From Gammaproteobacteria bacterium (GTDB taxonomy: Bacteria > Pseudomonadota > Gammaproteobacteria > SZUA-229): 40,967 bases of DNA. The stretch lies in the NCBI GenBank assembly GCA_026196545.1, contig JAPHSZ010000043.1, positions 1-40,967 of the forward strand. The letters are read 5' to 3'. The number at the start of each line of letters is the position of its first letter. Position 1 is the first letter of the stretch. A program made the position numbers and the translations under genes. Below the pieces are notes generated by a model. That model searched no databases and was not told the DNA's origin. It saw only the letters and a program-made list of their open reading frames with translations. This document shows, piece after piece, positions 110 through 31,457 of this stretch.

Positions 110-841
110 ATGTTTATATCTGCTAAGCAATTAAGATTGATTTTCAATTTGGTCGTGATCTGTCTTGCATCCTACGGCTGTAATTCAACACCAAGCACGG
201 TTGAAGCCGCTGTCGCTAGCGATGCACCAAAACCAGTAGCAGAGCCACGGCAGCCAGAAAAGAATGTGGCTGAGGCTAAGAAGCCCGTAAAAGCAAAAGA
301 GGGCGAGCCAAAACCGGCAGAAGATGCGAATTTGTTCAATCGCCTGCTAAAAAGCAGGAAGGTGAAGAGTAAAAGCTTAAAAGATGATGGTATTCACGAC
401 CCCGCAGGCCCGGGCGTAAAAGTATTGCAAAACCCGCAACAGGCTTTTAAGGATTTACCAAAAGCCAAGGGTGGCAATGCGGTCGATTGGGTCAAGGCAC
501 TGAATACCGGTAAAATTAAGCCACGTAGTAGCCTGGAAGATCCAAAAGCAGAGGCGCTGGTCATGGATATGAATATTATCAGGGAAGTGAAGGGATCTAT
601 GCCGAACGTGTTGTTTCCTCACAAGCAGCATACACAGCATCTTGACTGCACCAACTGTCACCCGGATATTTTTATTCCCATGAAGGGCGCTAATAAAATG
701 AGCATGGCGAAAAATTTGATGGGGCAACAGTGTGGTGTCTGTCACGGTAAGGTGGCGTTCCCGCTTTCAAGGTGTACCGCCTGCCATTCTCAAAAGAAAG
801 CTGCGAAAGAAATCAAGAAAACAAAATGGAAGTGGCCATAA
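110..841 (+). CDS. Trihaem c-type cytochrome (c7-type trihaem domain), probable lipoprotein
   Basis: 243-aa ORF with AGGCGGAG Shine-Dalgarno just upstream of the ATG. Hydrophobic N-terminal signal ends ...LASYGC (lipobox-like Cys). A low-complexity Ala/Pro/Lys/Glu linker follows. The C-terminal ~100 aa carries three CXXCH motifs (CTNCH, CGVCH, CTACH) in the DWVKAL..GKIKP / LFPHKQH context I associate with c7-type trihaem domains. Confidence 0.8.
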   Translation: MFISAKQLRLIFNLVVICLASYGCNSTPSTVEAAVASDAPKPVAEPRQPEKNVAEAKKPVKAKEGEPKPAEDANLFNRLLKSRKVKSKSLKDDGIHDPAGPGVKVLQNPQQAFKDLPKAKGGNAVDWVKALNTGKIKPRSSLEDPKAEALVMDMNIIREVKGSMPNVLFPHKQHTQHLDCTNCHPDIFIPMKGANKMSMAKNLMGQQCGVCHGKVAFPLSRCTACHSQKKAAKEIKKTKWKWP

Positions 842-887
842 AGATAAAATAAACAATATCTTCATCACTCAATAGAATGAGAGAATT

Positions 888-1742: not shown

Positions 1743-1791
1743 GCTTAAGAGTATCTATTGCTTTGCTTACAAATAGATTTAGTTATATGAA

Positions 1792-2388
1792 ATGATAAAA
1801 AAAATTGGCTCATTGTTATTGTTGCTCACGATTCCATTCGTCTTGTATGCAAAGGGTGATCCAGAAGTGGGCATGATAAAGGCAGAGGTTTGTGCGCAAT
1901 GCCACGGCTTTGATGGTAAAACCGCTGATCCCATCGTTCCCAGGCTCAATGGCCAGAACCAGGACTTTCTTTATAGAAACGCCATGCACTACAACCGTGG
2001 TGAGCGCTACGATATTGTAATGAAGAAAGTGATTAACAAGGTTCGTCCCAGTGCGGAAGATATTGCGGATATTACTGCTTTTTATTCGGGCTTGCCAATG
2101 ATGGCGGGTGATGGAATTATTACGGCGGAAGGTGAAATTGGTAAGGCGATTTTTGCCAAATACAATTGCAGATTTTGCCATAATGATGAAAACAGGAATG
2201 ATAAAATATTTATTTCCAAGACCGCTGTTATAGGTGGGCAAAATAAGGCCTATTTATATAAATCACTCAAGGATATACAACAAGATGTTCGCGAGGCTGA
2301 TCAGTTTAATTTGATGGAGCGAGTGCTCAATCATATGACGGATGACCAGATTCGTGCGCTGGCTGAGTATCTTAGTGCGTTAAAGTAG
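1792..2388 (+). CDS. Dihaem cytochrome c4-like (class I) periplasmic cytochrome
   Basis: 198-aa ORF with a signal peptide (..VLYA/KGD). It contains two class I modules, each with one CXXCH (CAQCHG, CRFCHN), and c4-like context (P.L.GQN..FLY, ..DI.AYLS). Confidence 0.8.
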   Translation: MIKKIGSLLLLLTIPFVLYAKGDPEVGMIKAEVCAQCHGFDGKTADPIVPRLNGQNQDFLYRNAMHYNRGERYDIVMKKVINKVRPSAEDIADITAFYSGLPMMAGDGIITAEGEIGKAIFAKYNCRFCHNDENRNDKIFISKTAVIGGQNKAYLYKSLKDIQQDVREADQFNLMERVLNHMTDDQIRALAEYLSALK

Positions 2389-2518
2389 GAGTAGTTATAG
2401 GATGCGTATGGTGCATCAAAATTCCAGATGTTGTTAGATTGTTAACCCGCATTTATCCTATCAAAGTCTGATTCGGGTTTAGTAGTGTGCAATAAACGCG
2501 GCAGTTACACAGAAAAAG

Positions 2519-4027
2519 TTACAGCCTTGGCGTACGTTCTTTACGAATACCAACTATACCATCCAGTTGAATCTTTTCGAGGTTGTTTTTATCATCAGTC
2601 AGTATCTGGCCAGATGAATAATCTATGTCTGTTAGCATAAAATTGTTATAAGGAATGTTGTATCTCGTAACAACTCTCTTTGGAATTCTTAAACCTCTAT
2701 CAACAATAATTTGAGGGTCATTAGACATGAATAGTAATTGCTCAGGACTTTGGTCGCCTTCATTTTTCTTTGCTAATGCAAAAAAAGCACCCGATTGATC
2801 CATTGTTTTCATCAATGAGTAAAGGGCATTCTTTTTCATTCCGGGTATATCGCTAAAATAGTGTAAAATAACGAAGCCGCCCGGATTCAACAATTCCAGA
2901 ATCCTTCGAAATGACTCGACGGTATATACATTCGCTGGAATACTTTCCCCTCTGCTCAAATCCAATATGATTAAATCATATTTTTTATTAGTAACATTGA
3001 TATGGTGTCTGAAATCATCAACTTTTAAATTAAAAGCATCGTTAGCATTCAAATACTTTCTTGAAACGGGGTACATTCGACTATCAAATTCAACACAGTC
3101 AACAGCAAAACCAAGTTCGATAAGTAAATTTATCAAAACACCACCGCCATAACCTGCGACAAGAACATCTGACCGAGCAGGTTTTACCGATGCGTAAGTT
3201 AATACACGATATGGGTATGTCCAAAGTGAAGATGAAAACTTTATATCAATAGCAGATTGATTCATTCTATTTAATGAGATGTATCGTGCTTCACCATACT
3301 CATCTCTTATTTCTAACTCTCCCATGATTCCATGATTGCGGTATAAGACTTTAGTGTTGTATGTATCTGTAATCTCATTTTGATTTTTTGCAACTCCAAA
3401 ATAAACCAGCATAAAAATAATCACATTCGCTGCCAACAAGGTATAAGAAGAGCTTTGCATTAAAAACAGGACTGAAATAACAAGAACCAGTAATCCTAAT
3501 GAATGCAAAATACCAATTAAATCAAATGCTGGTAATATAAAAAATGCCAATGCATAAATTGAAATTACCCCTCCAATGGTCGATGAAAAAAACACAGTGC
3601 CTGATGATTTCCCACTGTTTGCAACATGCAATGAGTAATACTTAACTATGATCGGGGAGTTCAATGTAATCAAAATTACTGGAACTAACAAAACAAGTAA
3701 TGAATGATAAATTAGTGCAGTGAATAACGAAAAACCCTGAAGCTTGACTGAAAGGAACTCGTTAAAACCAAAAATTAGTAAAAAATAAAGTCCTATAAAA
3801 ACCAAACATACGGAAACAATTAGTTTTATTTTCGAATCTGGAAACCTTGTTAATTGACCTCCTGCAATATAACCAATACCTGAACCTAGCATGGTAATAG
3901 CTAGCATAACCAACCATACATAATATGATTGGCCATAAAAAGGATGTGCCAATTGAGCATACATCAACTCCATTCCAACCAGTAGGGAGCCTTCAGCAAT
4001 GGCTGCTAATAGTAGTTTATTTTTCAT
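2519..4027 (-). CDS. Fused polytopic membrane / spermidine-synthase-like (aminopropyl- or methyltransferase fold) protein
   Basis: 502-aa ORF. The N-terminal ~215 aa are hydrophobic multi-TM, opening with the E..YAQ...PFYG.S.YVW motif. The C-terminal soluble half has a Rossmann nucleotide-binding loop (VLVAGYGGGVLINLL..VDCVEFD) and an acidic DLIILDL strand typical of spermidine synthase-like enzymes. Confidence 0.75.
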   Translation of the reverse strand: MKNKLLLAAIAEGSLLVGMELMYAQLAHPFYGQSYYVWLVMLAITMLGSGIGYIAGGQLTRFPDSKIKLIVSVCLVFIGLYFLLIFGFNEFLSVKLQGFSLFTALIYHSLLVLLVPVILITLNSPIIVKYYSLHVANSGKSSGTVFFSSTIGGVISIYALAFFILPAFDLIGILHSLGLLVLVISVLFLMQSSSYTLLAANVIIFMLVYFGVAKNQNEITDTYNTKVLYRNHGIMGELEIRDEYGEARYISLNRMNQSAIDIKFSSSLWTYPYRVLTYASVKPARSDVLVAGYGGGVLINLLIELGFAVDCVEFDSRMYPVSRKYLNANDAFNLKVDDFRHHINVTNKKYDLIILDLSRGESIPANVYTVESFRRILELLNPGGFVILHYFSDIPGMKKNALYSLMKTMDQSGAFFALAKKNEGDQSPEQLLFMSNDPQIIVDRGLRIPKRVVTRYNIPYNNFMLTDIDYSSGQILTDDKNNLEKIQLDGIVGIRKERTPRL

Positions 4028-4607
4028 GTCTATAATCTACTATATAAAATAAAATCGTAGCTACAGATAACAATGAAGCGCAAAAGAAGAGCGATAGCTT
4101 TGTTCCCACTTCGGGTAAAAAATAAAGACCAGCTAATAAAATAAACCCGACTCCACTCAAGGTGGAAATGCCATAAATATGACCTGCAAATCTCCCTGTG
4201 TCCTCTGTTGCTGCTGTAATTATATCGATAATTAAGGGGGAAAATAATCCAAATAGCACGTATAAAGGAAAATTAAAAATTAGTGTGGAGATAATAATCC
4301 CGGTTCTAATTTCAAAATCTAAAAATATGGTTTGTATAAAAGAAGAAAAATAGGGTAATACAAATACGAATGCAGAAATAGCGGCTAATGCAATCATGAG
4401 TGCCTTTTTGGAAATGCCTCTTTCTGAAAAATAACCGGCTAAAAAATAACCCACTGCTAACCCAATCATGGTTGTACCAATGATGGCTGCCCAAACATAT
4501 AACGAATTACCAAAATAAGGTGAGATTAATCGTGCCGAAAGTAATTCGCACGCCATCAACGTCCCGCCTGTGATAACTGATATAAAATAATATATATTTG
4601 GTTTCAA
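4017..4607 (-). CDS. Polytopic membrane protein, paralogue of the N-terminal membrane module of the downstream spermidine-synthase-like gene
   Basis: 196-aa ORF, entirely hydrophobic (about 6 TM). Its N-terminus (ELLSARLISPYFGNSLYVWAAIIGTTMIGLAVGY) aligns by eye with that of the 502-aa ORF (ELMYAQLAHPFYGQSYYVWLVMLAITMLGSGIGY). Its stop overlaps the next start by 11 nt (ATGAAAAATAA). Confidence 0.65.
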   Translation of the reverse strand: MKPNIYYFISVITGGTLMACELLSARLISPYFGNSLYVWAAIIGTTMIGLAVGYFLAGYFSERGISKKALMIALAAISAFVFVLPYFSSFIQTIFLDFEIRTGIIISTLIFNFPLYVLFGLFSPLIIDIITAATEDTGRFAGHIYGISTLSGVGFILLAGLYFLPEVGTKLSLFFCASLLSVATILFYIVDYRHEK

Positions 4608-4755
4608 TTTTTATCCCTAATATTTATGGATTAGCAAATAGAAATCTTTTTATGAGGAGTTTTTTAATTCTAAATTAACAAAAATGTATAATTTTTTGCT
4701 GCGTTTATGCATAAGTTGCCAGGGTCGAAAAGCCATCGACTCTGGCACTTGAAAT

Positions 4756-4799
4756 AGAATGCGTTCCCACGCGGAGCGTGGGAACGAGGTAAGCATTCT
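4756..4799. repeat. GC-rich compound palindrome (REP-like element, possibly a weak terminator)
   Basis: Perfect 11-bp stem CGTTCCCACGC (4762-4772) / GCGTGGGAACG (4776-4786) with a 3-nt loop. It is nested in an outer 6-7-bp stem AGAATGC (4756-4762) / GCATTCT (4793-4799). It lies 9 nt downstream of the minus-strand cytochrome stop. Only 3 T follow it on the minus strand, so it is not a canonical intrinsic terminator. Confidence 0.5.
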
Positions 4800-4807
4800 C
4801 AAATGAT

Positions 4808-6727
4808 TTATGGTGGAGGAAGAGCAGTGCATGCACCCCCACCCATGCCCATGCATTGACCACATATGGTGCCAGTAGATCGTTGATAGCCACAGGGCGG
4901 ATGATCCTGACCGTGGCAGGAGAGGGTGCACTGTGTATTATCACCGTCAGTCGCAAAATAAAATTTGTCAGCAAACGCTCCTGTGGGGCTTGCAACCGGT
5001 TCAACAGGATTAGTAGTGTCATAATTAATCAACCGGTCGAAGCGGACGCTGCCGTGGGGGTCGTGGCAGAGATTACAGGGGGTATTCAGACCAACACCGA
5101 AGGCTGCTCCGGCGCCCGTGATATGAAAGTTATGACGCATAAATGTGTTCACAGCCCAGTTACCGTCATTGCCCGTAATTACTGCCTCATCGTGGCACTT
5201 ATAACACATGGCATAATCAGAGGCTACATAAGCGACTCGGTCTGCTTTCTCATATTGTCTTTCCAGTATTGGAGGCCAGGCTGAACCATGAGGTCCGTTG
5301 GGGCCGGTGCCAGCCGCACCATTTCTTGGATTCTGGTCGTTATTATGACAGTCCAGGCAGCTTATTGTAGTGCCAGAGCCAGTGGCCCCGGTTGTGCCGC
5401 CAAGCGCTAAGGGGACTCCAGCAATCAGGCTTGGCACCCTGTCAGTAGCCAGAGGACCACCAATGGCAGAAGAGACCGGATGATAGGATGCACTGCTGGC
5501 TGGGTTAAATTCCAGTCGTACATTGGTCGGATCTCTATCTGCATCAAGACGTCGAAGGGTCAATTGTGCGGGTTTGCCCGTGCTATCGCCATGACAGCGG
5601 AAGCAAACCTGATGGGGATAGTCAACCGGTTCGATGTCTGCACCATCAATATCCACACCCTTGGCACCATTCAATGGACCCGATTTGCCAGCGACGGTGC
5701 CAATTGCCTGGACACCGTGAGGGTTGTGGCAATCGAAACAGACAACGTGCCGATTATCGACTACGTTATCATCGATGCCATCATCTTCCGCTGCATCATG
5801 GTCACCTGTACCTGAATAAGTGTAGATTGGATGGGTGCTGGCTTTGGCGAACTCAGCTTCGATGTCAAGAGTGGCTACGTTACTATTGTGACAGGCAAGG
5901 CAGATCTGTTCTTCAGCCGCATAATTCAGGATGCGCTCCGGGTTGCCTGCGGTATGCGGGCTGTGGCAGTTTTCACAGGCGTTATTGGCCACCGTGGTCT
6001 CTTCGGTATGAAACCAGGGGTCAGGAGCGACAGAATTCCAGGTTGCTGTTGAGACTCTATGAGAGACATTAGTATCATCCCAGTAGGCCTTGGTGTGACA
6101 GGTAATACACAAGGCCGAAGCGGTGTTTGATTTCACGAGGAATTTTGGAACGGCATCGGTATGGGGATCATGACAACTGGTACATTGCACCAGGCCAGAA
6201 CCATCTAAATGAACATCTGGGTCGGAATTTACAGCAGCCACGGTTTTTAGCTCGCTATTAAGCCCCGCTGCAGTGGCGTAATCAAACGATACCGGATGAT
6301 CATTGCTCAAGTCGTTAGTGCCTTCACCCAGATTGGTGACACCAGCAGGCATGGTTAAATCTGTCATTGTGACATCGGTATCGTTGTATATCTCACCGAG
6401 TGCAAGGGTGCCATCGTGGCAGCTCAGGCACAACAATGATGAGCCTGTAGGCTGGCCGGGTGTGGCGATACTAAAGGTTGAGCTATCGTAAGGTATGTAT
6501 GTATTGCCGTTTGAACTTTTGTTCCAGAGTGGGGCAATAGGGTTTGAGTTATGGGGTGTGTGGCAGAAAACACAAATTTGCGTCTGACCATCGGTTGCCT
6601 TGATTGCCGCGGCGCTAGTGGATGAGAGGTTATGTTTTGTGGCAGCAATGTTGCCTGCGCCAAGGGCCATCAGGCTGCCAGAAATGACAATAGCGGTCAG
6701 TCCAGATATAAGTGTTAGTAGCCTCAT
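4808..6727 (-). CDS. Multihaem c-type cytochrome, 11 CXXCH + 1 CX3CH, paired-CXXCH type
   Basis: 639-aa ORF with a signal peptide (..LMALGA/GN). The CXXCH motifs are CVFCH, CLSCH, CTSCH, CITCH, CENCH, CLACH, CFDCH, CFRCH, CLDCH, CYKCH and CNLCH, plus CTLSCH. Several sit in the C..CH.PH context with PLW and NDHPVSF motifs typical of doubled-CXXCH cytochromes. The start overlaps the upstream NHL gene stop (ATGA, 6724-6727). Confidence 0.9.
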   Translation of the reverse strand: MRLLTLISGLTAIVISGSLMALGAGNIAATKHNLSSTSAAAIKATDGQTQICVFCHTPHNSNPIAPLWNKSSNGNTYIPYDSSTFSIATPGQPTGSSLLCLSCHDGTLALGEIYNDTDVTMTDLTMPAGVTNLGEGTNDLSNDHPVSFDYATAAGLNSELKTVAAVNSDPDVHLDGSGLVQCTSCHDPHTDAVPKFLVKSNTASALCITCHTKAYWDDTNVSHRVSTATWNSVAPDPWFHTEETTVANNACENCHSPHTAGNPERILNYAAEEQICLACHNSNVATLDIEAEFAKASTHPIYTYSGTGDHDAAEDDGIDDNVVDNRHVVCFDCHNPHGVQAIGTVAGKSGPLNGAKGVDIDGADIEPVDYPHQVCFRCHGDSTGKPAQLTLRRLDADRDPTNVRLEFNPASSASYHPVSSAIGGPLATDRVPSLIAGVPLALGGTTGATGSGTTISCLDCHNNDQNPRNGAAGTGPNGPHGSAWPPILERQYEKADRVAYVASDYAMCYKCHDEAVITGNDGNWAVNTFMRHNFHITGAGAAFGVGLNTPCNLCHDPHGSVRFDRLINYDTTNPVEPVASPTGAFADKFYFATDGDNTQCTLSCHGQDHPPCGYQRSTGTICGQCMGMGGGACTALPPP

Positions 6728-7767
6728 AATTTAGCTCCCAGAAAACGAAACATCTGTATTCTTTGGTTGTATGTATCAGTGACATAAATGGTTTGCTGAT
6801 TATCTATATATATACCAACTGGCAACCAGAATTGTCCGGGGGCCTGGCCCTGTTCGCCGAAGTTGAGCAGGAAATTGCCGGTATTTTCAAAAATCTGCAC
6901 GGTGTGGAAAAGACCATCAACCACATATATATTCTGGTTCATATCAGTAGCAATGCCCTTGGACCTGGACTGGTAGCCGGTGGCATCACCTTGCTCACCA
7001 AATTTAGCTAGAAATTTCCCCTGTGCATCCAGTTTTTGAATACGGAAATTTAATGTATCGGATACCAGCAACTGATCTTTATTAAAGTGGATCATAGTTG
7101 GGTAATTAAATTCGCCGTTGCCAGTACCTCTTTGGCCAAATTCTTTGATTAATTCGCCGTTGAAATTTAGATTCAGTATTTTATGCTCGGAAGTGTCGGT
7201 CACATAAAAATCATTATTGCCACCGGCGACCATACCTGTGGGTTGTTTAAATGTGGCTTTGGTAATGAATTCATTAGCGATTATCTCGCCCTTGTTGACC
7301 TTATACAATTTGGCCAGCTTGGAATCTGAAATAATCAGGTTAGATTGATCATCCAGTACTAGCCCAATTGGGGAGAGCAGGGGGCGATTATTTTTTCTTA
7401 TTATTAGTGCATAAGACTGATTGACCGGATCAAATCGATGTATGCCCCTGGCGCCGGGGTCGGCTACGTAAATAACGCCTTCCTTGTCTTTTACGATAGC
7501 CATAGGTTTAACAAGACTCGTGCTTTTTTCACCGGCAAAAAAATCAACAAAACGACGCCATAAACTGCGGCTGATTTTAAGATCGGCGGCATTGCTGAAT
7601 GATCCAACATACTGAATCATGGGCCTGGCAGGTTTTGATGGCCAGAATATAGGTTCTACTGGTTTTTTTTCGCTTGATGTATTGTGCTGGCTACAGCTAG
7701 TTATCAGCAACAGGGCCATTAACCATATTAACCAGCTATAAACTTTTTTGTCTGAGAATAATTTCAT
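6724..7767 (-). CDS. NHL-repeat beta-propeller lipoprotein
   Basis: 347-aa ORF with a lipoprotein signal (LLLITSC/SQ). It has repeated NHL-type blades (G.G.GEF.YP..I.F....L.VSD..N.RIQK; GQF..P.GIYID....IYVTD..N.RIQMF). Confidence 0.85.
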   Translation of the reverse strand: MKLFSDKKVYSWLIWLMALLLITSCSQHNTSSEKKPVEPIFWPSKPARPMIQYVGSFSNAADLKISRSLWRRFVDFFAGEKSTSLVKPMAIVKDKEGVIYVADPGARGIHRFDPVNQSYALIIRKNNRPLLSPIGLVLDDQSNLIISDSKLAKLYKVNKGEIIANEFITKATFKQPTGMVAGGNNDFYVTDTSEHKILNLNFNGELIKEFGQRGTGNGEFNYPTMIHFNKDQLLVSDTLNFRIQKLDAQGKFLAKFGEQGDATGYQSRSKGIATDMNQNIYVVDGLFHTVQIFENTGNFLLNFGEQGQAPGQFWLPVGIYIDNQQTIYVTDTYNQRIQMFRFLGAKL

Positions 7768-7770
7768 TGA

Positions 7771-9789
7771 TTAAAACGGTCTTGTAAGGCGCATGAAAAT
7801 GGATAAATCATCGCGCTCATAAATTCCCTGTTCCTCGATCGAATATTTGACAGTAGCTTTATAATGAAGTTTCCTGTAATCCCAGTAAAAATTCAGGTTA
7901 TTATCAAGCATTGTACGTTTGATTGAGCCGCCGGTGTTTTTTGAATAATTGGATTCAAAGATCATGCTGACTCTTGTCCATGGCCGGGCACCTATACGTG
8001 CGCCCAATGTTTTTGTATTAACATCTTCATCTGAATTTTCATTATCCCTTTTAATTAATCCTGCACTTAGTCTTAGCTTGGCTTTGTCGTATAACGGTGT
8101 GTTAATGAAAGCGCTAACGCTTTTTCTGTTGTAGGGGCTTGTTTCTTCGTTATGCTGCTGCGCCTGTATTTCACCACCGACAGTTAAACCTTTTTTCAGT
8201 GGTCTGTCAGCACGTAGTTGCAGTTTCACACCATCCGATGAATTTAATCCAATAACGGGGATACCTTCCTTGAGTTTATCGTCAGTCTTATATAGCCTGA
8301 CAGAAAGGTCATAGTACTTGCCGATGTCTAACCCAAAATTAAAATTTTGTGACAGTTGCTGTTTTTTATAGGTGCCGCCTGTCTGGTAACTATAATCGAT
8401 TAAAACGCTCTGGCCATCTACAATGTTACCTGTGATCAATCGTTCTATTAGCGTCTGGTCGCCAACAGTTGTAATCGTATAGTCCGTACCCTCAACATAT
8501 GTCTGGGTTTGAGTCAGGTTTGTTACAATAATGGTCGTAGTGTCAATGTAATCCCGGTTGATGGTTACCTGGGTAATGCCAGTGAGAATATATTGATCAT
8601 CATAGATGGGAAATAAATCGGTTGCAGAGGCCTGATCCAGGATATTCATGTTAGCATTATAGGTGAGTGAATATTGGCCGTAGGAAACGGGTATTTTCTT
8701 TGAAACACCGAGGTTTGCGCCCGTGCTTTCTGACTTAATATCGGTGGATTTGTTAGTGCCGTGAGAGAGACCAACGTTGCCGCTCAGCATGTTGTCTCCG
8801 GAATATCTTAACTGGGCTGTTGTTTTATTATTTTCAGTTTCCATGCCCTGTTCATCTGTATGATAGGTTGAGTAAGTGTAATACGAGCTAAAGCGTTTAT
8901 TGTGTGTCCAGTTAAGTCTGGGCCTGAAAAACCATGTCTCTCTTTCTGGGAATTCATCCTGTTTACTGTATTCTGCATTGGTTTCCAGCCGAAGCTGATT
9001 TTCAGATCCAAACCCGTTTCTTGTTTTTAGTCCTGTCGTTGAAGAGCTGGTTTCTCTTGCTGTAATGGGTAGGGCCAGGCTACCCGATTTTGACATACTG
9101 TTATTAATTTGATGGCTTAGGCCTATATAAGCTAAAGAGGATCCATAAGAATACTTCATGTCCAGTTTGACTCGTTCATTTACTTCATCTGTAACCTGAA
9201 TATTATTTTTGCCATAACTGGTTGTTCTTGAGGCAGAAAGCTGCGTGTTGACAGGTGACAATGGCTGGTACAGACCCAGATTGGCGCCATATTCTATTCG
9301 TTCCAGTAAATAGCTATCTGTTAGACCCGTTGGTGTGTAGGTATTTGTCTGCTTATAAAAAAGAGAAACAGGCGTAGGTTTTTTGTGTAAAAAGTTAAAT
9401 TTTGCAGAAAGATCAGCCACACGACTGTTTTCTTCATCAGAAGAATCACGCGTTTTCTGGTTGAAAAGCAGACCGGCACTAAAGTCCATTTTCAGGAAGT
9501 TTGGATGATAAGCATAGCTGTCCATATTAAGAGACAATTTTTCCTGCCAATACTGGCTATCCGATGTGTGTGAGGTGCCATCTGAAGAAACCGATTTCTG
9601 TTTGGCTGTTTGAGATGTTATTGAGAATAAGCCGCCGACATCTGTGACTTTAAAGGGTGCAATTTCTGCTGCCTGTGTCGTATTGCACAGGCAGCAGATA
9701 AAAGCGTATCCCAGTATTGCTAAATGCTTGTGTAAAGACAGATCTCCTTTCTGTTTATTCCCTGATGAACGCTTACTGGTTAACAACAT
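7771..9789 (-). CDS. Predicted large outer-membrane beta-barrel protein (porin-like), family unknown
   Basis: 672-aa ORF with a signal peptide (..CNTTQA/AE). Composition is rich in Ser/Thr/Asn/Gly/Tyr with alternating hydrophobic patterns and many short Y/F-ended segments. The C-terminal beta-signal-like end is ..IFMRLTRPF with a terminal Phe. No Cys occurs outside the signal. It is tightly packed between the two NHL genes. The start is uncertain because I see no clear SD. Confidence 0.65.
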   Translation of the reverse strand: MLLTSKRSSGNKQKGDLSLHKHLAILGYAFICCLCNTTQAAEIAPFKVTDVGGLFSITSQTAKQKSVSSDGTSHTSDSQYWQEKLSLNMDSYAYHPNFLKMDFSAGLLFNQKTRDSSDEENSRVADLSAKFNFLHKKPTPVSLFYKQTNTYTPTGLTDSYLLERIEYGANLGLYQPLSPVNTQLSASRTTSYGKNNIQVTDEVNERVKLDMKYSYGSSLAYIGLSHQINNSMSKSGSLALPITARETSSSTTGLKTRNGFGSENQLRLETNAEYSKQDEFPERETWFFRPRLNWTHNKRFSSYYTYSTYHTDEQGMETENNKTTAQLRYSGDNMLSGNVGLSHGTNKSTDIKSESTGANLGVSKKIPVSYGQYSLTYNANMNILDQASATDLFPIYDDQYILTGITQVTINRDYIDTTTIIVTNLTQTQTYVEGTDYTITTVGDQTLIERLITGNIVDGQSVLIDYSYQTGGTYKKQQLSQNFNFGLDIGKYYDLSVRLYKTDDKLKEGIPVIGLNSSDGVKLQLRADRPLKKGLTVGGEIQAQQHNEETSPYNRKSVSAFINTPLYDKAKLRLSAGLIKRDNENSDEDVNTKTLGARIGARPWTRVSMIFESNYSKNTGGSIKRTMLDNNLNFYWDYRKLHYKATVKYSIEEQGIYERDDLSIFMRLTRPF

Positions 9790-10912
9790 CAGGTTTTATT
9801 TCATCAGGTTTATTTTCATCGGGGTTAGCAACGTCTGGTTCTTCCTCCATGTGACCAAAGCCATAAACATTCAGCATGCTCCTGCCGAACTGGCTGGTGA
9901 CCAGGATCAGGTATTCGAGTTCAAAGCCTGGTTTGGCATATTTCTGGAAGTAGGAAACATTGTCATAATCGATGACGACTTTGGCAGGGAGGTTGATGTT
10001 ATGCGGGTATCCACCGGCCTCACCAAAATACATTAAGATTTCAGCTTCCTTGTTAAAAATTTGAACATTGCTGAACGAAGCATCGACGACATAGATGTTG
10101 CCGTCTTTGTCTATATCAATGCCCTTGGGTCGGGTGAGGTTGCCAACCCGGTTGCCGACCTTGCCAATGCTCCTGATGAATTCGCCCTCGAGGGTGTACT
10201 CCTGGATATTGAAATTCATGGTTGCACTGACGTACAGGTGATTGTCCGGACTCAGGGCCATATTGGTTGGGATATATAAGCGGCCTTCAGTGTCTTCATT
10301 CTTGTTTTCACCGATGGTGTAGAGTTTTTCACCGGTATTTTTATTATAAACCTGGATGACATTATGATTGATATCTGAAATAAACACCCTTTCATCGACT
10401 ACCAGTACATCAGAGGGCCTGAGGTCGTCATCTTCACCGAGCGTTCTTACAAATTCATTTTTTTCATCAAAAACAACGACCAACTTCCTTTTCATGTCGG
10501 TTATATATCTATGGCTTTTGTCATCGACAAAGATATTGATGGGCTTGACCATTCGGCCATCGAATGTACCGCGTACCTGCTTAAATTCTTTCTTGTTAAG
10601 GTCGAAGGTAGCAAAACCAGCGCCTCGAATATCGACCAGGTAAATAATGCCGTCCTTTATGGCTACGCCATAGGCTTTTCTTACCCTGGATGTAGCCATT
10701 GCCTCATCACCAAGAATAAAATCACTAAAACCGCTTGTTTTTTCAACGAGGTCATCTGCGCCGGAAAAACTGGTTAAATACTGGATTTTGGGTGCGCTAG
10801 GTGGGGGCGGGTAAAAAATAAATTCTGTGGTTTTTTTGGGGGTGCCACCACAGGCAACTAGAAACTGGGTGAGTAACAAAATTGAGAAAAACTTTAATGA
10901 TTTACTTAGCAT
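9773..10912 (-). CDS. NHL-repeat beta-propeller lipoprotein (paralogue of 6724-7767) with acidic Pro-rich C-terminal tail
   Basis: 379-aa ORF with lipobox FLVAC/GG. An N-terminal segment (PKIQYLTSFSGADDL) parallels the other NHL protein (PMIQYVGSFSNAADL). NHL blades are present (G.L.RPKGIDIDKDGNIYVVD..F.NVQIF). The tail reads EEEPDVANPDENKPDEIKPDVVNQ. Confidence 0.85.
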   Translation of the reverse strand: MLSKSLKFFSILLLTQFLVACGGTPKKTTEFIFYPPPPSAPKIQYLTSFSGADDLVEKTSGFSDFILGDEAMATSRVRKAYGVAIKDGIIYLVDIRGAGFATFDLNKKEFKQVRGTFDGRMVKPINIFVDDKSHRYITDMKRKLVVVFDEKNEFVRTLGEDDDLRPSDVLVVDERVFISDINHNVIQVYNKNTGEKLYTIGENKNEDTEGRLYIPTNMALSPDNHLYVSATMNFNIQEYTLEGEFIRSIGKVGNRVGNLTRPKGIDIDKDGNIYVVDASFSNVQIFNKEAEILMYFGEAGGYPHNINLPAKVVIDYDNVSYFQKYAKPGFELEYLILVTSQFGRSMLNVYGFGHMEEEPDVANPDENKPDEIKPDVVNQ

Positions 10913-11131
10913 GGTATCTTTTACAACTTAATCAGATTAATCGTTATTAAAGTTTAGCTTACTGCTTTGTCGCTGTCTTGCAGTAATTATTATATTTCAA
11001 AAAAATTGTATGATTTATAAATATTTCTAAGAAGAAAGATTGTTGTCAGGTAGTTAGTGTGATCGTGTTTTAGTTAAATTTTATTGTAAGTGGTTATATG
11101 TAATTAGTTGCTGTCAAAGAAAGCTGTAACC

Positions 11132-11164
11132 AAAAAAACAGGCCTCTTAATAGAGGCCTGTTTT
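11132..11164 (-). terminator. Rho-independent terminator (bidirectional geometry) after the tetrahaem cytochrome gene
   Basis: 10-bp GC-rich stem ACAGGCCTCT (11138-11147) / AGAGGCCTGT (11152-11161) with a 4-nt loop. A7 lies on the plus-strand side, giving a T7 run after the stem on the minus strand, and TTTT lies on the other side. It sits 15 nt downstream of the stop at 11179. Confidence 0.8.
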
Positions 11165-11178
11165 CATCTGTCAAACAA

Positions 11179-11928
11179 TTATTTGTTGTGACAGGTCAGG
11201 CAAAGAGCACTGCCCGTCAGATTGACTTTCAGCAATCTGGTACCGTCAGTACCTACATAGTTATTGTGTACGTCATGACAGGATGTACATTCAACGGTCA
11301 ATGTGCCAGCGTCATTTGTCAGCATCATCTCAGCCAGTGTACCAGTCTTGGTGCGTGCACCACTACCGATTGTAATACCGCCAGTAGTACTCGCAAACAT
11401 ACCAGGGTCAACTGTGTCCTCAGTGTACTCGAACGAAACAGGGTGGTCATTGTTCAGGAAGCCATTGCCGGCGCCATCATCTTCACCAATGTTTCTGCTA
11501 CCGCCATTCATATCATTAACGGTGTCACCAGTACCGACTACACCACCAAAGGAATCAAGAGCGATTGAACCATCATGACAGGATAGACATAGTTTAGATA
11601 TGCCATTTGGCTGTGCAATGGTTGCTACGCCATCAAATGTTGTAGAGGTGTCGTACAGATCATATGTAGTAGTTGTAAGTGTACGATCCCATAATGGAGC
11701 AACGCTTACAGTAGTGTCAGCAGCATGCGGGGTATGACACACGGTACACAGCTCATTGTTTGTATTCCACGTGTATGTGCTGGTATCTGCATACACGCCA
11801 TCTGAGAAGTCATGCACACTACCTGCGATATCGCCAGCCTGCGCAAAACCCGAAAACATGGAAAAATAGCCTGTCGCTAGCGCTATGCCTCCAACCCTCA
11901 AAAACTTAATAATATTCATTCTTTTCAT
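11179..11928 (-). CDS. Tetrahaem c-type cytochrome, paralogous to the N-terminal part of the 639-aa cytochrome
   Basis: 249-aa ORF with a signal peptide (..SGFAQA/GD) and four CXXCH motifs (CTVCHTPH, CLSCHDG, CTSCHDVH, CLTCHNK at the extreme C-terminus). It shares the C..CHTPH....APLW, LCLSCHDG and NDHPVSFEY motifs, in the same order, with residues ~25-165 of the 639-aa cytochrome. Confidence 0.9.
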   Translation of the reverse strand: MKRMNIIKFLRVGGIALATGYFSMFSGFAQAGDIAGSVHDFSDGVYADTSTYTWNTNNELCTVCHTPHAADTTVSVAPLWDRTLTTTTYDLYDTSTTFDGVATIAQPNGISKLCLSCHDGSIALDSFGGVVGTGDTVNDMNGGSRNIGEDDGAGNGFLNNDHPVSFEYTEDTVDPGMFASTTGGITIGSGARTKTGTLAEMMLTNDAGTLTVECTSCHDVHNNYVGTDGTRLLKVNLTGSALCLTCHNK

Positions 11929-12582: not shown

Positions 12583-14589
12583 TTGGGTATTGTTGTTCAT
12601 ATGTATGTGTCAAATATTCAGTTTGATGTGGCTATTAAGTCGGATTTTTATTTTTTGATTCGTACCCTGGCTTTTAGTTTTTTTATTACTTTGATTATTG
12701 TCGATTGTGCACAGGCATCGCCAATAGATGATACTGTCGATACCGCGCCGCAAGCCACCTCTCTGAATCCGGGTGATATCAATCCTAAGCTTGAACAGCT
12801 TATTCATCGTGATATCAATACTGTTTTAGATGTTCCTCCCGTCTATCAGCGCCCGCTGGGTGTGGAGGCAGGACCTCGTGTCTATGTGAGAAAATTTCAT
12901 GTTACGGGAGTCAATGAGTGGCCTAAATTTAATATCTCACAGCAACGAGTTGATACTTTTGTAGAAAAACTCAGGCTAGAAATGCAGACCATCGATGCGA
13001 TGAACGAGCATGGCTTGACTGAGGGTGATATGGCTGAGATAGCCAGACGTCTCAAGGAATCTTTGTATGATGACGATGAAAAGGCGGCTAAAGATCATGC
13101 ACAGTTTCTGAAGGAGCTTCGCAAGAACAAGAAATTCCGTGAGGAAATGAGCATAGGTCAGTTACAGGATGTGGCTAATCAGCTTACTGATTTATATCGT
13201 AGCGCTGGATTTGTAATTGCCCAGGCCTATGTGCCACAACAAAAAATTGAAGATGGCGTTGTTAATATACATGTACAGGAAGGTGTTTTAGGGCGGATTG
13301 TTGTTGAAGATAATAAATCTTATTCGACGGCATTAATTCAGGATATTTTTAAACACCTGGAAGACAAGAGTGTGACCAAACAGTCATTGGAGAATGCCCT
13401 TTTTTCACTTAGTGATTACCCTGGCCTGGTTGCTTATGGCGTTTTACAGTCTGGTCAAAATACGGGTGAAACTGACCTGGTGATTAAGGTTCAGGAAGAA
13501 GATCAGCGTGAATATTCTGTGCGTCTGGACAATTATGGAACTGAATCGACAGGTGAAAATCGCCTGACACTGAGTTATACCGAAAATAATTTATTTGGAA
13601 ATGCAGATAGCTTTGATCTCAGTTTGTTGCAGACATTTTCACCAACGAATAATCTGTATGGTGGCATTAAATATAAAACACCTGTGATCAGCCATAACAC
13701 ATTAGTCGGTTTTGGGTTTTCAACGAATACCTATGATGTTGGCGGGCTCCAGATTACTGACATCAGTGGTTCGGTCGATTCTTCTAATCTTTTTGTCAGC
13801 CACCAGTTTCTGCGCAGTCGTGTCAGCAATGCATACGGTAAGCTGGATATTTTGAGAAAGGCGGCAGAAACAAAATTATCCAGTACTACATTAAATGAAG
13901 TGACTCTGGGTGCAGTAGTGCTGGAGTTTGGTTTTGATATGCTGGATAAAAAATATAAAGGCATTAATCAGGGAACAATTAAATATACCCATGGCATGGA
14001 TGACTTTCTGGGATCAACTGGTGAGGAGGATGCGTCTGATTCAGGTCGAAAGGGAGAGTCGGGTGATAATGCAAGCAGTGATTTTGCCAAGCTGAACTGG
14101 AATGTGGCTCGTTTGCAGTTAATTGATAAATATCAGAATGTGTTGCTGCGTTTTTCAGGACAATATTCTGATGATCTGCTGGTGCCTGTTGAACAGTCCG
14201 GTTTAGGTGGGCCGAATAATGTAAGGGCATTTGCGCCATCAGTTGCTTTGCGAGATAGCAGCCTGTTTGTATCGGTAGACTGGAGTTTCAATGCGCCTTT
14301 TTTCTATGATGTTAAAGCATTTGATGGCTGGAAGTGGGGTGAAATTTTACAGCTTTCCGTGTTTGCGGATTATGTAAAGGGTAGGAATAATGATGCCACT
14401 GATGATGAGGGAGATGTCAATATTTCCGGTTATGGCGTAGCAGCACAATTATTATTACCCGGGCAAATGCAATTGAGACTGGATATAGGCAAACCATTCA
14501 GTGCTCTGGAAATTCCAAATTCAGCTACCGGTGGTGTTGAGGCTGTTGATGATGTCCAGTTTTATCTGACCTTTAGCTATACGGGTTAG
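12583..14589 (+). CDS. TpsB transporter, ShlB/FhaC/HecB-family outer-membrane secretion/activation protein
   Basis: 668-aa ORF with a TTG start 6 nt after an AGGA RBS (alternative ATG at 12601) and a signal peptide (..VDCAQA/SP). It has POTRA-type motifs (VRKFHVTGV.., LTDLYRSAGFVIAQAYVPQQKIEDGVVNIHVQEGVLGRIVV), the barrel motif GLGGPNNVRAF and a C-terminal aromatic end (..FYLTFSYTG). Confidence 0.9.
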   Translation: MGIVVHMYVSNIQFDVAIKSDFYFLIRTLAFSFFITLIIVDCAQASPIDDTVDTAPQATSLNPGDINPKLEQLIHRDINTVLDVPPVYQRPLGVEAGPRVYVRKFHVTGVNEWPKFNISQQRVDTFVEKLRLEMQTIDAMNEHGLTEGDMAEIARRLKESLYDDDEKAAKDHAQFLKELRKNKKFREEMSIGQLQDVANQLTDLYRSAGFVIAQAYVPQQKIEDGVVNIHVQEGVLGRIVVEDNKSYSTALIQDIFKHLEDKSVTKQSLENALFSLSDYPGLVAYGVLQSGQNTGETDLVIKVQEEDQREYSVRLDNYGTESTGENRLTLSYTENNLFGNADSFDLSLLQTFSPTNNLYGGIKYKTPVISHNTLVGFGFSTNTYDVGGLQITDISGSVDSSNLFVSHQFLRSRVSNAYGKLDILRKAAETKLSSTTLNEVTLGAVVLEFGFDMLDKKYKGINQGTIKYTHGMDDFLGSTGEEDASDSGRKGESGDNASSDFAKLNWNVARLQLIDKYQNVLLRFSGQYSDDLLVPVEQSGLGGPNNVRAFAPSVALRDSSLFVSVDWSFNAPFFYDVKAFDGWKWGEILQLSVFADYVKGRNNDATDDEGDVNISGYGVAAQLLLPGQMQLRLDIGKPFSALEIPNSATGGVEAVDDVQFYLTFSYTG

Positions 14590-14616
14590 GTCTGATGTAT
14601 ATTTTGCGATTAGGGA

Positions 14617-27293: not shown

Positions 27294-27318
27294 CAGTATT
27301 TTTATAACTGTTTATATT

Positions 27319-31452: not shown

Positions 31453-31457
31453 GCATA

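What the first reader, a model, noticed from the sequence alone, without database searches (positions are those of the whole stretch)
4808..11928. Cytochrome / NHL propeller / beta-barrel / NHL propeller / cytochrome block: candidate outer-membrane electron conduit or cytochrome export-assembly machine unlike the Mtr or Pcc archetypes
Seen: five consecutive minus-strand genes. They encode a tetrahaem cytochrome (with its own terminator), an NHL lipoprotein, a 672-aa predicted barrel ending ..RLTRPF, a paralogous NHL lipoprotein and a 639-aa cytochrome with 11 CXXCH + 1 CX3CH. The last four are packed tightly (17-nt overlap at 9773-9789, 3-nt gap at 7768-7770, ATGA overlap at 6724-6727). That indicates one translationally coupled operon. 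Every product has a Sec or lipoprotein signal, so the whole block is envelope-located. Established: MtrCAB (Shewanella) and porin-cytochrome complexes (Geobacter, Fe(II) oxidisers) pair a large barrel with multihaem cytochromes. As I know them, they do not use twin six-bladed NHL lipoproteins flanking the barrel gene. From memory, and to be verified, the Geobacter omcS-companion cluster couples beta-propeller-like and channel-like proteins to nanowire-cytochrome biogenesis. That is the closest analogy I know. Inference: the barrel plus two propellers either houses or positions the 12-site cytochrome across the outer membrane, or exports and assembles the small tetrahaem protein.
Basis: partly seen in the sequence, partly recalled or inferred. 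Interest (0 to 1): 0.85.

Follow-up and report, generated by a model that had tools for sequence, protein, structure and literature searches.

The report
OmcE-type cytochrome nanowire gene module
This five-gene block is a compact proteobacterial version of a widespread, already described gene set for moving electrons across the outer membrane: a likely subunit of a conductive cytochrome filament (OmcE family), an outer-membrane barrel, two propeller lipoproteins and a 12-haem cytochrome; it is not a new kind of system.

Summary

The 249-aa tetrahaem protein is a full-length homologue of OmcE, the solved Geobacter and Desulfuromonas nanowire subunit (PDB 7TFS and 9YUQ). The first ~213 residues of the 639-aa cytochrome are a second complete OmcE-like module fused to eight more haem sites.

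The 672-aa protein is confidently predicted as a barrel of about 28-30 strands. It belongs to a large family that no Pfam or NCBIfam model covers.

The module is strongly conserved. Of 80 named-genome loci, 34 carry a six-part form with an extra pentahaem lipoprotein, in many phyla. Eight carry the window's five-part form, and all eight have proteobacterial labels.

Gene sets with this parts list are already published: the minimal omcE clusters (Petersen et al. 2025) and the Tenderiales uet cluster (Eddie et al. 2022). It differs from the Geobacter sulfurreducens omcE locus, whose barrel is not detectably related and which has no 12-haem cytochrome.

Verdict: a new member of a known kind. The most useful lead is that the OmcE-like module of the 12-haem cytochrome could be the unidentified base or tip adaptor of the filament.

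The parts
11179..11928 (-). Small tetrahaem cytochrome (249 aa), OmcE family; proposed filament subunit
   Evidence: Full-length match to the solved OmcE filaments 7TFS (E = 3.5e-23) and 9YUQ (E = 2.6e-17). All 8 Cys and 8 His haem ligands of OmcE are conserved. It ends 2 residues after haem motif 4, as OmcE does. Sec-type signal ending AQA|G.
11128..11166 (-). Intrinsic-terminator-like hairpin plus U-run, 12 nt after the small cytochrome's stop codon
   Evidence: MFE -24.6 kcal/mol, z = -6.3, 0 of 200 shuffles as stable. Same stem in L001, and comparable hairpins at this position in about 20 of 50 diverse loci.
9773..10912 (-). NHL/SGL beta-propeller lipoprotein A (379 aa)
   Evidence: Pfam SGL and NHL. 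Lipobox LVAC with Cys21 and Gly at +2. Orthologues at 32-65% identity in all compared loci, closer than to paralogue B.
7771..9789 (-). Outer-membrane beta-barrel (672 aa), about 28-30 strands, with a conserved small beta-domain inserted at about residues 403-460
   Evidence: AlphaFold2 mean pLDDT 86.8, all-beta. Only generic large-barrel fold matches; best TM-score 0.43 to MtrB. No Pfam, NCBIfam or PDB sequence match above threshold. Family of 2761 representatives at E <= 1e-3. C-terminal Phe conserved in at least 90% of homologues.
6724..7767 (-). NHL beta-propeller lipoprotein B (347 aa)
   Evidence: Pfam NHL, E = 2e-20. Lipobox ITSC with Cys25 and Ser at +2. 35% identical (E = 1e-59) to the NHL protein of the G. 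sulfurreducens omcE locus.
4808..6727 (-). 12-site multihaem cytochrome (639 aa; 'CYT12'); proposed trans-barrel or adaptor cytochrome
   Evidence: 11 CXXCH plus 1 CX3CH, all invariant in 65 homologues, along with 16 further invariant His. At least 6830 homologues and at least 585 matching genome stretches.
6089..6727 (-). N-terminal OmcE-like tetrahaem module of CYT12 (residues 1-213)
   Evidence: E = 4.3e-26 to 7TFS and 2.5e-21 to 9YUQ. All 16 OmcE haem-ligand residues conserved. Present in 84 of 89 CYT12 ORFs. The modules form one clade.
4811..4897 (-). Cys/Gly/Met-rich C-terminal tail of CYT12 (residues 611-639); function unknown
   Evidence: Sequence PPCGYQRSTGTICGQCMGMGGGACTALPPP. Comparable tails occur only in a subset of proteobacterial loci.
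4762..4786 (-). Terminator-like hairpin at the end of the block
   Evidence: 11-bp stem with 8 G-C pairs, followed by a T-rich tail.
110..841 (+). Trihaem c7-type cytochrome (243 aa); possible periplasmic partner (association inferred)
   Evidence: Pfam Cytochrome_C7. 3 CXXCH and a signal-like N-terminus. The same gene lies next to the module in L001/L002.
1792..2388 (+). Dihaem class-I c-type cytochrome (198 aa); possible periplasmic partner (association inferred)
   Evidence: Pfam Cytochrom_C and Cytochrome_CBB3. 2 CXXCH. Conserved beside the module in L001/L002.

Best explanation
The block is a compact, five-gene proteobacterial form of a widespread module for extracellular electron transfer built around an OmcE-family cytochrome.

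Shown by the analyses: the homologies, the conserved haem ligands, the barrel fold, the lipoboxes, the conserved synteny and the terminator.

Inferred working model:
- The small tetrahaem protein is made in excess, because a terminator separates it from the machinery genes. It is exported by Sec and matured in the periplasm.
- It passes through, or is mounted on, the 28-30-strand barrel. The two outer-membrane-anchored NHL propeller lipoproteins help this step as periplasmic chaperones or scaffolds.
- Outside the cell it polymerises head-to-tail into an insulated haem wire, as OmcE does.
- The 12-haem cytochrome links the periplasm to the wire. Its C-terminal eight haems would take electrons from, or give them to, periplasmic carriers; trihaem c7-type and dihaem c-type cytochrome genes lie nearby. 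Its N-terminal OmcE-like module would dock onto the first filament subunit through the normal subunit-subunit interface.

The direction of electron flow (uptake from minerals or cathodes, as proposed for Uet, or export to oxides) cannot be decided from sequence.
For: - OmcE homology of the small cytochrome over its full length, with all 8 Cys and 8 His ligands conserved.
- All 47 small subunits in related loci end exactly 2 residues after haem motif 4, as both solved OmcE subunits do. This leaves the haem-4 face free for the next subunit.
- A strong terminator follows the subunit gene and recurs in about 20 of 50 loci. This is the usual layout for a major-subunit gene placed ahead of its assembly genes.
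- The barrel is confidently predicted. It is always adjacent to the other parts, and the same order of parts holds from 80% down to 22% barrel identity.
- 42 of 80 named-genome loci carry the complete module.
- CYT12 carries an OmcE-like module in 84 of 89 cases, with 12 invariant haem sites.
- The NHL-B orthologue sits in the experimentally validated G. sulfurreducens omcE locus.
- Petersen et al. use a nearby large barrel plus a propeller lipoprotein as the marker of nanowire-competent OmcE homologues, and favour a porin-mounted model.
- OmcE filaments use inter-subunit His-haem ligation.
Against: - No experiment exists for this lineage, and polymerisation is inferred from homology only.
- In the tree, the validated OmcE proteins are equally distant (0.694) from the small subunits and from the CYT12 N-modules. 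Homology alone therefore does not say which of them, if either, polymerises.
- The barrel is not detectably related to the barrel of the validated G. sulfurreducens omcE locus (no HMM hit; hhalign probability 15.7%). That locus also has no CYT12.
- The haem-free AlphaFold2 model of CYT12 was too poor to test docking (pLDDT 52).
- Multimer or haem-aware modelling was not available.
- CYT12 can occur without the barrel (L024).
Confidence: 0.6

Rival explanations
1. A non-polymeric porin-cytochrome conduit, as first proposed for Uet. The 12-haem cytochrome sits inside the barrel like MtrA in MtrB. The small tetrahaem protein is a monomeric extracellular or terminal cytochrome bound to it through the shared OmcE-like interface. 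No long filament forms.
For: The best fold match of the barrel is MtrB, although the TM-score is only 0.43. The Uet authors proposed a barrel with an inserted multihaem cytochrome, with UetA and UetJ interacting. The CYT12 N-module and the small protein are equally distant from validated OmcE, so a 1:1 heterodimer using the OmcE interface is possible.
Against: The small protein keeps every feature of a polymerising OmcE, including the free C-terminal end. The terminator implies that the subunit is made in excess of the machinery. Two dedicated propeller lipoproteins are not part of Mtr or Pcc conduits.
Confidence: 0.3
2. Same nanowire module, but CYT12 is the distal tip or initiator rather than the cell-proximal base. 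It would be exported first. Its eight extra haems would form a more exposed contact surface for minerals or partner cells, and OmcE-like subunits would be added beneath it at the barrel.
For: The OmcE-like module leaves only one polymerisation face free, because the chain continues after haem motif 4. That fits an end-cap at either end. [quoted passage not shown] CYT12 has a Sec signal and no lipobox.
Against: Nothing in the sequence fixes the polarity. If CYT12 is the tip, no protein in the five-gene form is left to carry electrons through the barrel, because the pentahaem lipoprotein found in most phyla is missing here.
Confidence: 0.2
3. A periplasmic redox or enzymatic system unrelated to extracellular electron transfer. 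The NHL proteins would act as enzymes and the barrel as a substrate porin.
For: NHL/SGL folds include lactonases and other enzymes (Pfam SGL hit). No direct functional data exist.
Against: No catalytic domain was found in any product. The parts are strictly linked to an OmcE homologue and a 12-haem cytochrome across many phyla. The barrel is far larger than substrate porins.
Confidence: 0.04

Closest known systems
Minimal omcE nanowire gene clusters (Petersen et al. 2025, bioRxiv 10.1101/2025.10.22.684050; source of PDB 9YUQ)
   Same: Described as always encoding the OmcE subunit, a large beta-barrel, two beta-propeller lipoproteins and multihaem cytochromes. OmcE homologues with a nearby barrel and propeller lipoprotein were reported in five phyla, including Pseudomonadota. 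The window has the OmcE homologue, the barrel and both propellers. The six-part form I found in 34 loci fits their description.
   Different: The window has one accompanying multihaem cytochrome, not two, because the pentahaem lipoprotein next to the barrel is absent. That my six-part form equals their 'smallest cluster' is inferred from their text, not tested by sequence. They state that no OmcE-like tip candidate is encoded in omcE operons, whereas CYT12 here begins with an OmcE-like module.
Geobacter sulfurreducens omcE locus (OmcE filament, PDB 7TFS)
   Same: The OmcE subunit is 33% identical to the window's small cytochrome and 37% identical to the CYT12 N-module. The NHL lipoprotein is 35% identical to NHL-B. 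A large protein with no Pfam family (752 aa) lies next to omcE.
   Different: The 752-aa protein is not detectably related to the window's barrel. There is no CYT12; two different cytochromes with 11 and 8 haem sites take its place. Only one NHL gene is present. A glycosyltransferase block follows, and ppcA-resB-ccsB precede. The same layout is kept in L093 and L094.
uet (undecahaem electron transfer) cluster of Candidatus Tenderia electrophaga and other Tenderiales (Eddie et al. 2022, bioRxiv 10.1101/2022.05.06.490989); also reported in Gallionella (PMC10734462)
   Same: Gammaproteobacterial. It has a tetrahaem UetA, a barrel UetC predicted with 28 strands, two NHL proteins UetH and UetI, and an 11-12-site doubled-CXXCH cytochrome UetJ. 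The authors already raised the possibility that one of the cytochromes polymerises.
   Different: The uet cluster also has a PPIase, three trihaem c7 proteins and a cupredoxin between the barrel and the NHL genes, with ccsAB, nrfG and bat genes downstream. The window's operon has none of these; one trihaem c7-type gene lies 2.4 kb away. No Uet sequences were available, so homology was not tested here.
OmcS-companion (osc) cluster of Geobacter (Shen et al. 2025, Cell Chem Biol 32:239; cited, text not held)
   Same: [quoted passage not shown] From my own memory, this includes beta-propeller-like and channel-like proteins. The logic matches the logic proposed here.
   Different: The subunit there is the hexahaem OmcS, which shares no sequence similarity with OmcE. 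Neither window cytochrome hits an OmcS structure. Homology of the accessory proteins could not be tested.
MtrCAB and porin-cytochrome (Pcc) conduits
   Same: A large outer-membrane barrel combined with multihaem cytochromes. MtrB is the best single fold match (TM-score 0.43).
   Different: There is no MtrB/PioB family hit. The MtrA/DmsE decahaem model scores far below its cut-off (50.5 against 192.2 bits). Those systems have no NHL lipoproteins and no OmcE-like subunit.

Membership tests
OmcE cytochrome-nanowire subunit family (small 249-aa cytochrome) | Full-length sequence homology to experimentally solved OmcE filament subunits | tested here: met
   7TFS: E = 3.5e-23 over residues 28-249. 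9YUQ: E = 2.6e-17.
OmcE cytochrome-nanowire subunit family (small 249-aa cytochrome) | Four CXXCH motifs plus the four further His that ligate the haems | tested here: met
   All 8 Cys and 8 His are invariant in the alignment with both solved OmcEs.
OmcE cytochrome-nanowire subunit family (small 249-aa cytochrome) | Chain ends directly after haem motif 4 | tested here: met
   It ends CLTCHNK. All 47 small subunits, both solved OmcEs and the two Geobacter-type OmcE homologues (L093, L094) end 2 residues after the motif.
OmcE cytochrome-nanowire subunit family (small 249-aa cytochrome) | Large outer-membrane barrel and propeller lipoprotein encoded nearby (operational criterion of Petersen et al.) | tested here: met
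   the criterion is quoted.
OmcE cytochrome-nanowire subunit family (small 249-aa cytochrome) | Forms an extracellular filament with inter-subunit His-haem ligation | not testable with these tools
   This needs cryo-EM or haem-aware multimer modelling.
Geobacter-type omcE gene cluster | Barrel homologous to the ~750-aa protein next to omcE | tested here: not met
   No hit of the barrel HMM at E <= 10. hhalign probability 15.7%.
Geobacter-type omcE gene cluster | NHL lipoprotein homologue | tested here: met
   NHL-B against the L091 361-aa NHL protein: 35% identity, E = 1e-59.
Geobacter-type omcE gene cluster | The two accompanying cytochromes (11 and 8 haem sites) and the adjacent glycosyltransferase block | tested here: not met
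   Only generic haem-motif similarity to these cytochromes. No glycosyltransferase lies adjacent to the block in the window.
Minimal six-part omcE-type module (OmcE, two propellers, barrel, two multihaem cytochromes) | OmcE-like subunit, NHL-A, barrel, NHL-B and the 12-site cytochrome, all homologous and adjacent | tested here: met
   HMM hits to all five in the window and in 42 complete loci. Window barrel to the six-part-form barrels: E = 5e-10 to 4.5e-16.
Minimal six-part omcE-type module (OmcE, two propellers, barrel, two multihaem cytochromes) | Pentahaem lipoprotein cytochrome immediately upstream of the barrel | tested here: not met
   Absent from the window and from all 8 complete five-part proteobacterial loci.
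Tenderiales uet cluster | Parts list: tetrahaem cytochrome, ~28-strand barrel, two NHL proteins, 11-12-site doubled-CXXCH cytochrome | tested here: met
   compared with the published description. This is a match by composition only.
Tenderiales uet cluster | Sequence orthology to UetA, UetC, UetH, UetI and UetJ | not tested
Tenderiales uet cluster | PPIase, three trihaem c7 proteins and a cupredoxin inside the cluster; ccsAB, nrfG and bat genes downstream | tested here: not met
   None lie within 4808-11928. A single trihaem c7-type gene lies outside the block at 110-841.
MtrCAB / porin-cytochrome conduits | MtrB/PioB-family barrel and MtrA/DmsE-family decahaem cytochrome | tested here: not met
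   The barrel has no Pfam hit and only a below-cut-off NCBIfam hit (tail-tube model, 27.1 vs 60 bits). TIGR03508 scores 50.5 bits against a cut-off of 192.2. The fold TM-score to MtrB is only 0.43.
OmcS / osc nanowire system | OmcS-family hexahaem subunit | tested here: not met
   Neither cytochrome hits an OmcS chain in the PDB at E <= 10.
OmcS / osc nanowire system | Homology of the accessory propeller and channel proteins to Osc proteins | not tested
   The Shen et al. 2025 text and sequences are not held.

The most novel reading that the evidence does not exclude
The 12-haem cytochrome is the missing adaptor of OmcE-type nanowires. Its N-terminal module is a built-in OmcE subunit that seeds or caps the filament through the native inter-subunit haem-His interface. 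The invariant His223, just after haem motif 4, would replace the His normally donated by a neighbouring subunit. The other eight haems would connect the wire through the barrel to the periplasm, or form the mineral-contacting tip. If so, a single widespread protein family (at least 585 matching genome stretches spanning many phyla) would mark where electrons enter or leave these wires. Recent reviews list that point as unknown, and Petersen et al. say no such candidate is visible in omcE operons.
Probability: 0.3. Interest if true: 0.75.

Novelty: new member of a known kind. Interest (0 to 1): 0.45.

Why it matters
Cytochrome nanowires are the best-understood route for long-range microbial electron transfer. 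How they are secreted and anchored, and where electrons enter them, is still open.

This window adds an uncultured gammaproteobacterial lineage to the carriers of an OmcE-type module. The comparative work adds four more general points:
- The module, defined by its 12-haem cytochrome, is far more widespread than the five phyla reported so far. It occurs in at least 585 matching genome stretches spanning Bacteroidota, Ignavibacteriota, Calditrichota, Verrucomicrobiota, Planctomycetota, Nitrospirota, Acidobacteriota, Desulfobacterota and others.
- Its barrel is a large family with no curated model.
- Proteobacteria carry a reduced five-gene form, which would be the smallest unit to try in heterologous reconstitution.
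- The 12-haem cytochrome always begins with an OmcE-like module, which gives a concrete and testable candidate for the filament's base or tip.

Tried and rejected
- The haem-free AlphaFold2 model of CYT12 gave pLDDT 52. I did not use it for a fold search.
- The Foldseek search with the barrel gave only generic large-barrel matches (TonB-dependent receptors, ushers, LptD, MtrB, SlpA) at TM-scores of 0.43 or less, so no specific family could be assigned.
- The weak NCBIfam hit of barrel residues 414-473 to a phage tail-tube model (27 bits against a cut-off of 60) was treated as non-significant.
- The idea that the window is simply the Geobacter omcE cluster was rejected after I fetched that locus.
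- L006 was suspected to be from the Desulfuromonadia, but its CcsA is only 33% identical to the Geobacter protein, so that idea was dropped.
- L024 was examined as a possible uet-like layout. It is a stand-alone CYT12 with two other cytochromes.
- The consensus terminator scan missed the hairpin after the small cytochrome. Direct folding confirmed it.
- Rfam found nothing in the window.
- The full-text paper search failed six times. I therefore could not check systematically whether the OmcE-like module of the 12-haem cytochrome has been described before. The OmcE structure paper and Shen et al. 2025 are not held.
- The cluster-member look-up added only one taxon label, Acidiferrobacterales.
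- The organism could not be placed more precisely than Gammaproteobacteria. The closest labelled relatives are MAGs named only 'Gammaproteobacteria bacterium', and the best named genome is 49% identical in CYT12.

Full report
**1. Observation**

- The small protein has 4 CXXCH motifs.
- The large one has 11 CXXCH motifs plus CTLSCH at residue 600.
- The junctions are a 17-nt overlap, a 3-nt gap and an ATGA overlap.

Locus L001 keeps the same junction geometry although its proteins are only 52-83% identical.

Both NHL proteins have lipoboxes, LVAC and ITSC. Their +2 residues are Gly and Ser, which by the established Lol sorting rule of Gammaproteobacteria suggests outer-membrane anchoring. The other three products have Sec-like N-termini.

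A hairpin followed by a U-run starts 12 nt after the small cytochrome's stop codon. Its MFE is -24.6 kcal/mol and z = -6.3. A second terminator-like hairpin closes the block at 4786-4762.

**2. What the parts are**

*The two cytochromes.* The 249-aa cytochrome aligns over its whole length with two chains:
- 7TFS chain A (E = 3.5e-23). A near-identical (98%) Geobacter sulfurreducens protein shows that this chain is Geobacter OmcE.
- 9YUQ (E = 2.6e-17), the Desulfuromonas soudanensis OmcE bundle.

The first ~213 residues of the 639-aa cytochrome hit the same two structures even more strongly (E = 4.3e-26 and 2.5e-21). All eight Cys and eight His that bind the four OmcE haems are invariant in the small protein and in this N-terminal module.

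OmcE filaments are held together partly by a His from one subunit ligating a haem of the next.

*The barrel.* The 672-aa protein has no Pfam or PDB sequence match, and only a below-cut-off NCBIfam hit. AlphaFold2 predicts it confidently (mean pLDDT 86.8) as an all-beta barrel of about 28-30 long strands. A small, highly conserved beta-domain is inserted at about residues 403-460.

Foldseek finds only generic large barrels. The best TM-scores are 0.43 to MtrB and about 0.40 to 30-strand SlpA. A full HMM search finds 2761 family representatives at E <= 1e-3 and 1220 at E <= 1e-30. This is a large family that nobody has curated.

*The propellers.* The two NHL proteins are ancient paralogues. They are 31% identical to each other, and each is closer to its own orthologues in other phyla.

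**3. Conservation**

The 12-site cytochrome (CYT12) is the best-conserved part.
- It has at least 6830 homologues at E <= 1e-10.
- All 12 haem sites and 16 further His are invariant in 65 sequences.

I built profiles for each component and ran them over 90 loci. Of the 80 named-genome loci:
- 34 carry a complete six-part module: OmcE-like subunit, NHL-A, a pentahaem lipoprotein, barrel, NHL-B and CYT12. They come from Bacteroidota, Ignavibacteriota, Calditrichota, Verrucomicrobiota, Planctomycetota, Nitrospirota, Acidobacteriota, Desulfobacterota, Myxococcota and others.
- 8 carry the window's five-part form, which lacks the pentahaem lipoprotein. All 8 have proteobacterial labels: Thioalkalispiraceae, Woeseiaceae, Sedimenticola, Rhodocyclales, three labelled only Gammaproteobacteria and one only 'proteobacterium'.
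- 38 are partial, mostly because the contig ends.

Metagenomic loci L001-L003 and the complete-genome locus L010 have the same five-gene order. L003 and L010 have different flanking genes.

In several five-part loci, extra cytochromes follow the module, together with a third NHL protein and an 18-24-haem cytochrome. L003 and L010 also carry an inner-membrane cytochrome b there. These genes are not present in the window.

The window and L001 instead share nearby trihaem c7-type and dihaem c-type cytochrome genes.

**4. Comparison with known systems**

*Minimal omcE clusters.* Petersen et al. (bioRxiv 10.1101/2025.10.22.684050) state that the smallest omcE clusters always encode two multihaem cytochromes, two beta-propeller lipoproteins, OmcE and a large beta-barrel. 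They also report OmcE homologues with such neighbours in five phyla, including Pseudomonadota. This parts list fits my six-part form. The window is that form minus one cytochrome.

*The uet cluster.* Eddie et al. (bioRxiv 10.1101/2022.05.06.490989) described the gammaproteobacterial uet cluster. It has a tetrahaem UetA, a 28-strand barrel UetC, the NHL proteins UetH and UetI and an undecahaem UetJ, plus several extra genes. They linked it to electron uptake and already raised possible polymerisation. I could not obtain Uet sequences, so this match rests on composition only.

*The Geobacter omcE locus.* I fetched the G. sulfurreducens omcE locus (L091) and tested it directly.
- OmcE and the NHL protein are homologous to the window's parts.
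- The 752-aa neighbour is not detectably related to the window's barrel: no HMM hit, and hhalign probability 15.7%.
- There is no CYT12.
- The same Geobacter-type layout recurs in a Desulfuromonadales MAG and a Rhodocyclaceae MAG.

The window therefore belongs to a sister architecture, not to the Geobacter-type cluster.

*Mtr and Pcc.* Membership is excluded.

**5. Mechanism**

*Shown:* the homologies, the ligand conservation, the barrel fold, the lipoboxes, the synteny and the terminator.

*Inferred:* the small cytochrome is the polymerising subunit. The barrel is its exit or mounting pore. The two propeller lipoproteins act as periplasmic assembly factors. CYT12 is the electrical link.

Three observations favour the small protein as the polymer unit:
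- It is free-standing and the same length as OmcE.
- All 47 such proteins end exactly two residues after haem motif 4, as both solved OmcE subunits do. This leaves that face open for the next subunit.
- A terminator often separates its gene from the machinery genes (about 20 of 50 loci), as expected for a major subunit made in excess.

In CYT12 the chain continues past haem motif 4 into eight more haem sites. Its OmcE-like module therefore has only one free polymerisation face, which suits an end-piece. Whether that end is the cell-proximal base or the distal tip cannot be decided here.

*Caveat.* In a distance tree the validated OmcE proteins are equally far (0.694) from the small subunits and from the CYT12 N-modules, and the N-modules form their own clade. 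Homology alone does not prove that the small protein polymerises.

A non-polymeric conduit of the kind first proposed for Uet remains a serious rival.

**6. Novelty and score**

This is a new member of a known kind. The system is not unlike anything known.

The points I did not find stated in the papers I could read are:
- the universal OmcE-like module at the N-terminus of the 12-haem cytochrome;
- the much wider phyletic spread;
- the five-gene proteobacterial form;
- the size of the uncurated barrel family.

I score interest at 0.45. The adaptor hypothesis gets probability 0.3, and interest 0.75 if true.

Noticed in passing
window 4811-4897 (-), CYT12 residues 611-639: The 12-haem cytochrome ends in a Cys/Gly/Met-rich tail (PPCGYQRSTGTICGQCMGMGGGACTALPPP). 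Similar tails, of the pattern HNPC[TS]YG...G/M-rich...C, occur only in a subset of proteobacterial loci (L001, L003, L012, L013, L017, L018, L024). In other phyla the protein stops about 9 residues after the last haem motif. Metal binding or a flexible tether are possible roles, but neither was tested.
   Followed up: partly
window 8410-8583 (-), barrel residues ~403-460: The most conserved stretch of the barrel family is a small inserted beta-domain (motif DYxITVIG...GNIxDGQxVLVDYSY). It has a sub-threshold NCBIfam hit to a phage tail-tube protein model (27 bits against a cut-off of 60). It lies after about 18 strands, which would place it on the periplasmic side or in the lumen as a plug or docking domain.
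   Followed up: partly
window 110-2388 (+): Three genes lie here: a trihaem c7-type cytochrome, a 284-aa protein with no Pfam family (its sequence looks helical by eye) and a signal peptide, and a dihaem class-I c-type cytochrome. The same trio lies beside the module in L001/L002. They may be the periplasmic electron carriers that serve the module.
   Followed up: partly
window 2519-4607 (-): Two adjacent genes of the fused MFS/spermidine-synthase family (196 aa and 502 aa) lie directly downstream of the module on the same strand. This adjacency is kept in L001/L002 but not in more distant loci. Their role is unknown.
   Followed up: no
window 12583-26382 (+): A two-partner secretion pair lies divergent from the small cytochrome gene: a ShlB/FhaC-type transporter with a POTRA_2 domain (668 aa) and a 3921-aa ORF, unscanned here but presumably its exoprotein. 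L001 has the same neighbours (a 657-aa transporter and a 4772-aa protein).
   Followed up: no
window 26406-32270: A signalling gene cluster: an adenylate/guanylate cyclase with an FHA domain, a 1377-aa Ser/Thr kinase with a C-terminal FGE-sulfatase-like domain, and a PP2C phosphatase.
   Followed up: no
L003 13029-17983; L010 11640-19564; also L013, L015, L017, L020: In several five-part loci the module is followed by more multihaem cytochromes, a third NHL protein and an 18-24-haem cytochrome. L003 and L010 also have an inner-membrane cytochrome b (Ni_hydr_CYTB) there. This suggests a complete quinone-pool-to-surface pathway. These genes are absent from the window.
   Followed up: partly
L024 9836-13815: In one Pseudomonadota chromosome the 12-site cytochrome family member (11 motifs counted in this copy) stands without a barrel, NHL proteins or an OmcE-like subunit within 10 kb. 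Two other multihaem cytochromes follow it. The protein is therefore not strictly dependent on the module.
   Followed up: yes
L094 (Rhodocyclaceae MAG) 222-4926: A betaproteobacterial MAG carries a Geobacter-type omcE cluster: an OmcE 65% identical to the G. sulfurreducens protein, the ~750-aa neighbour and the glycosyltransferase block. This suggests horizontal transfer of the Geobacter-type system into Proteobacteria, separate from the window's type.
   Followed up: no
L018 (Sedimenticola MAG); L072: Some loci carry two tandem copies of the small OmcE-like subunit gene ahead of the machinery genes.
   Followed up: no
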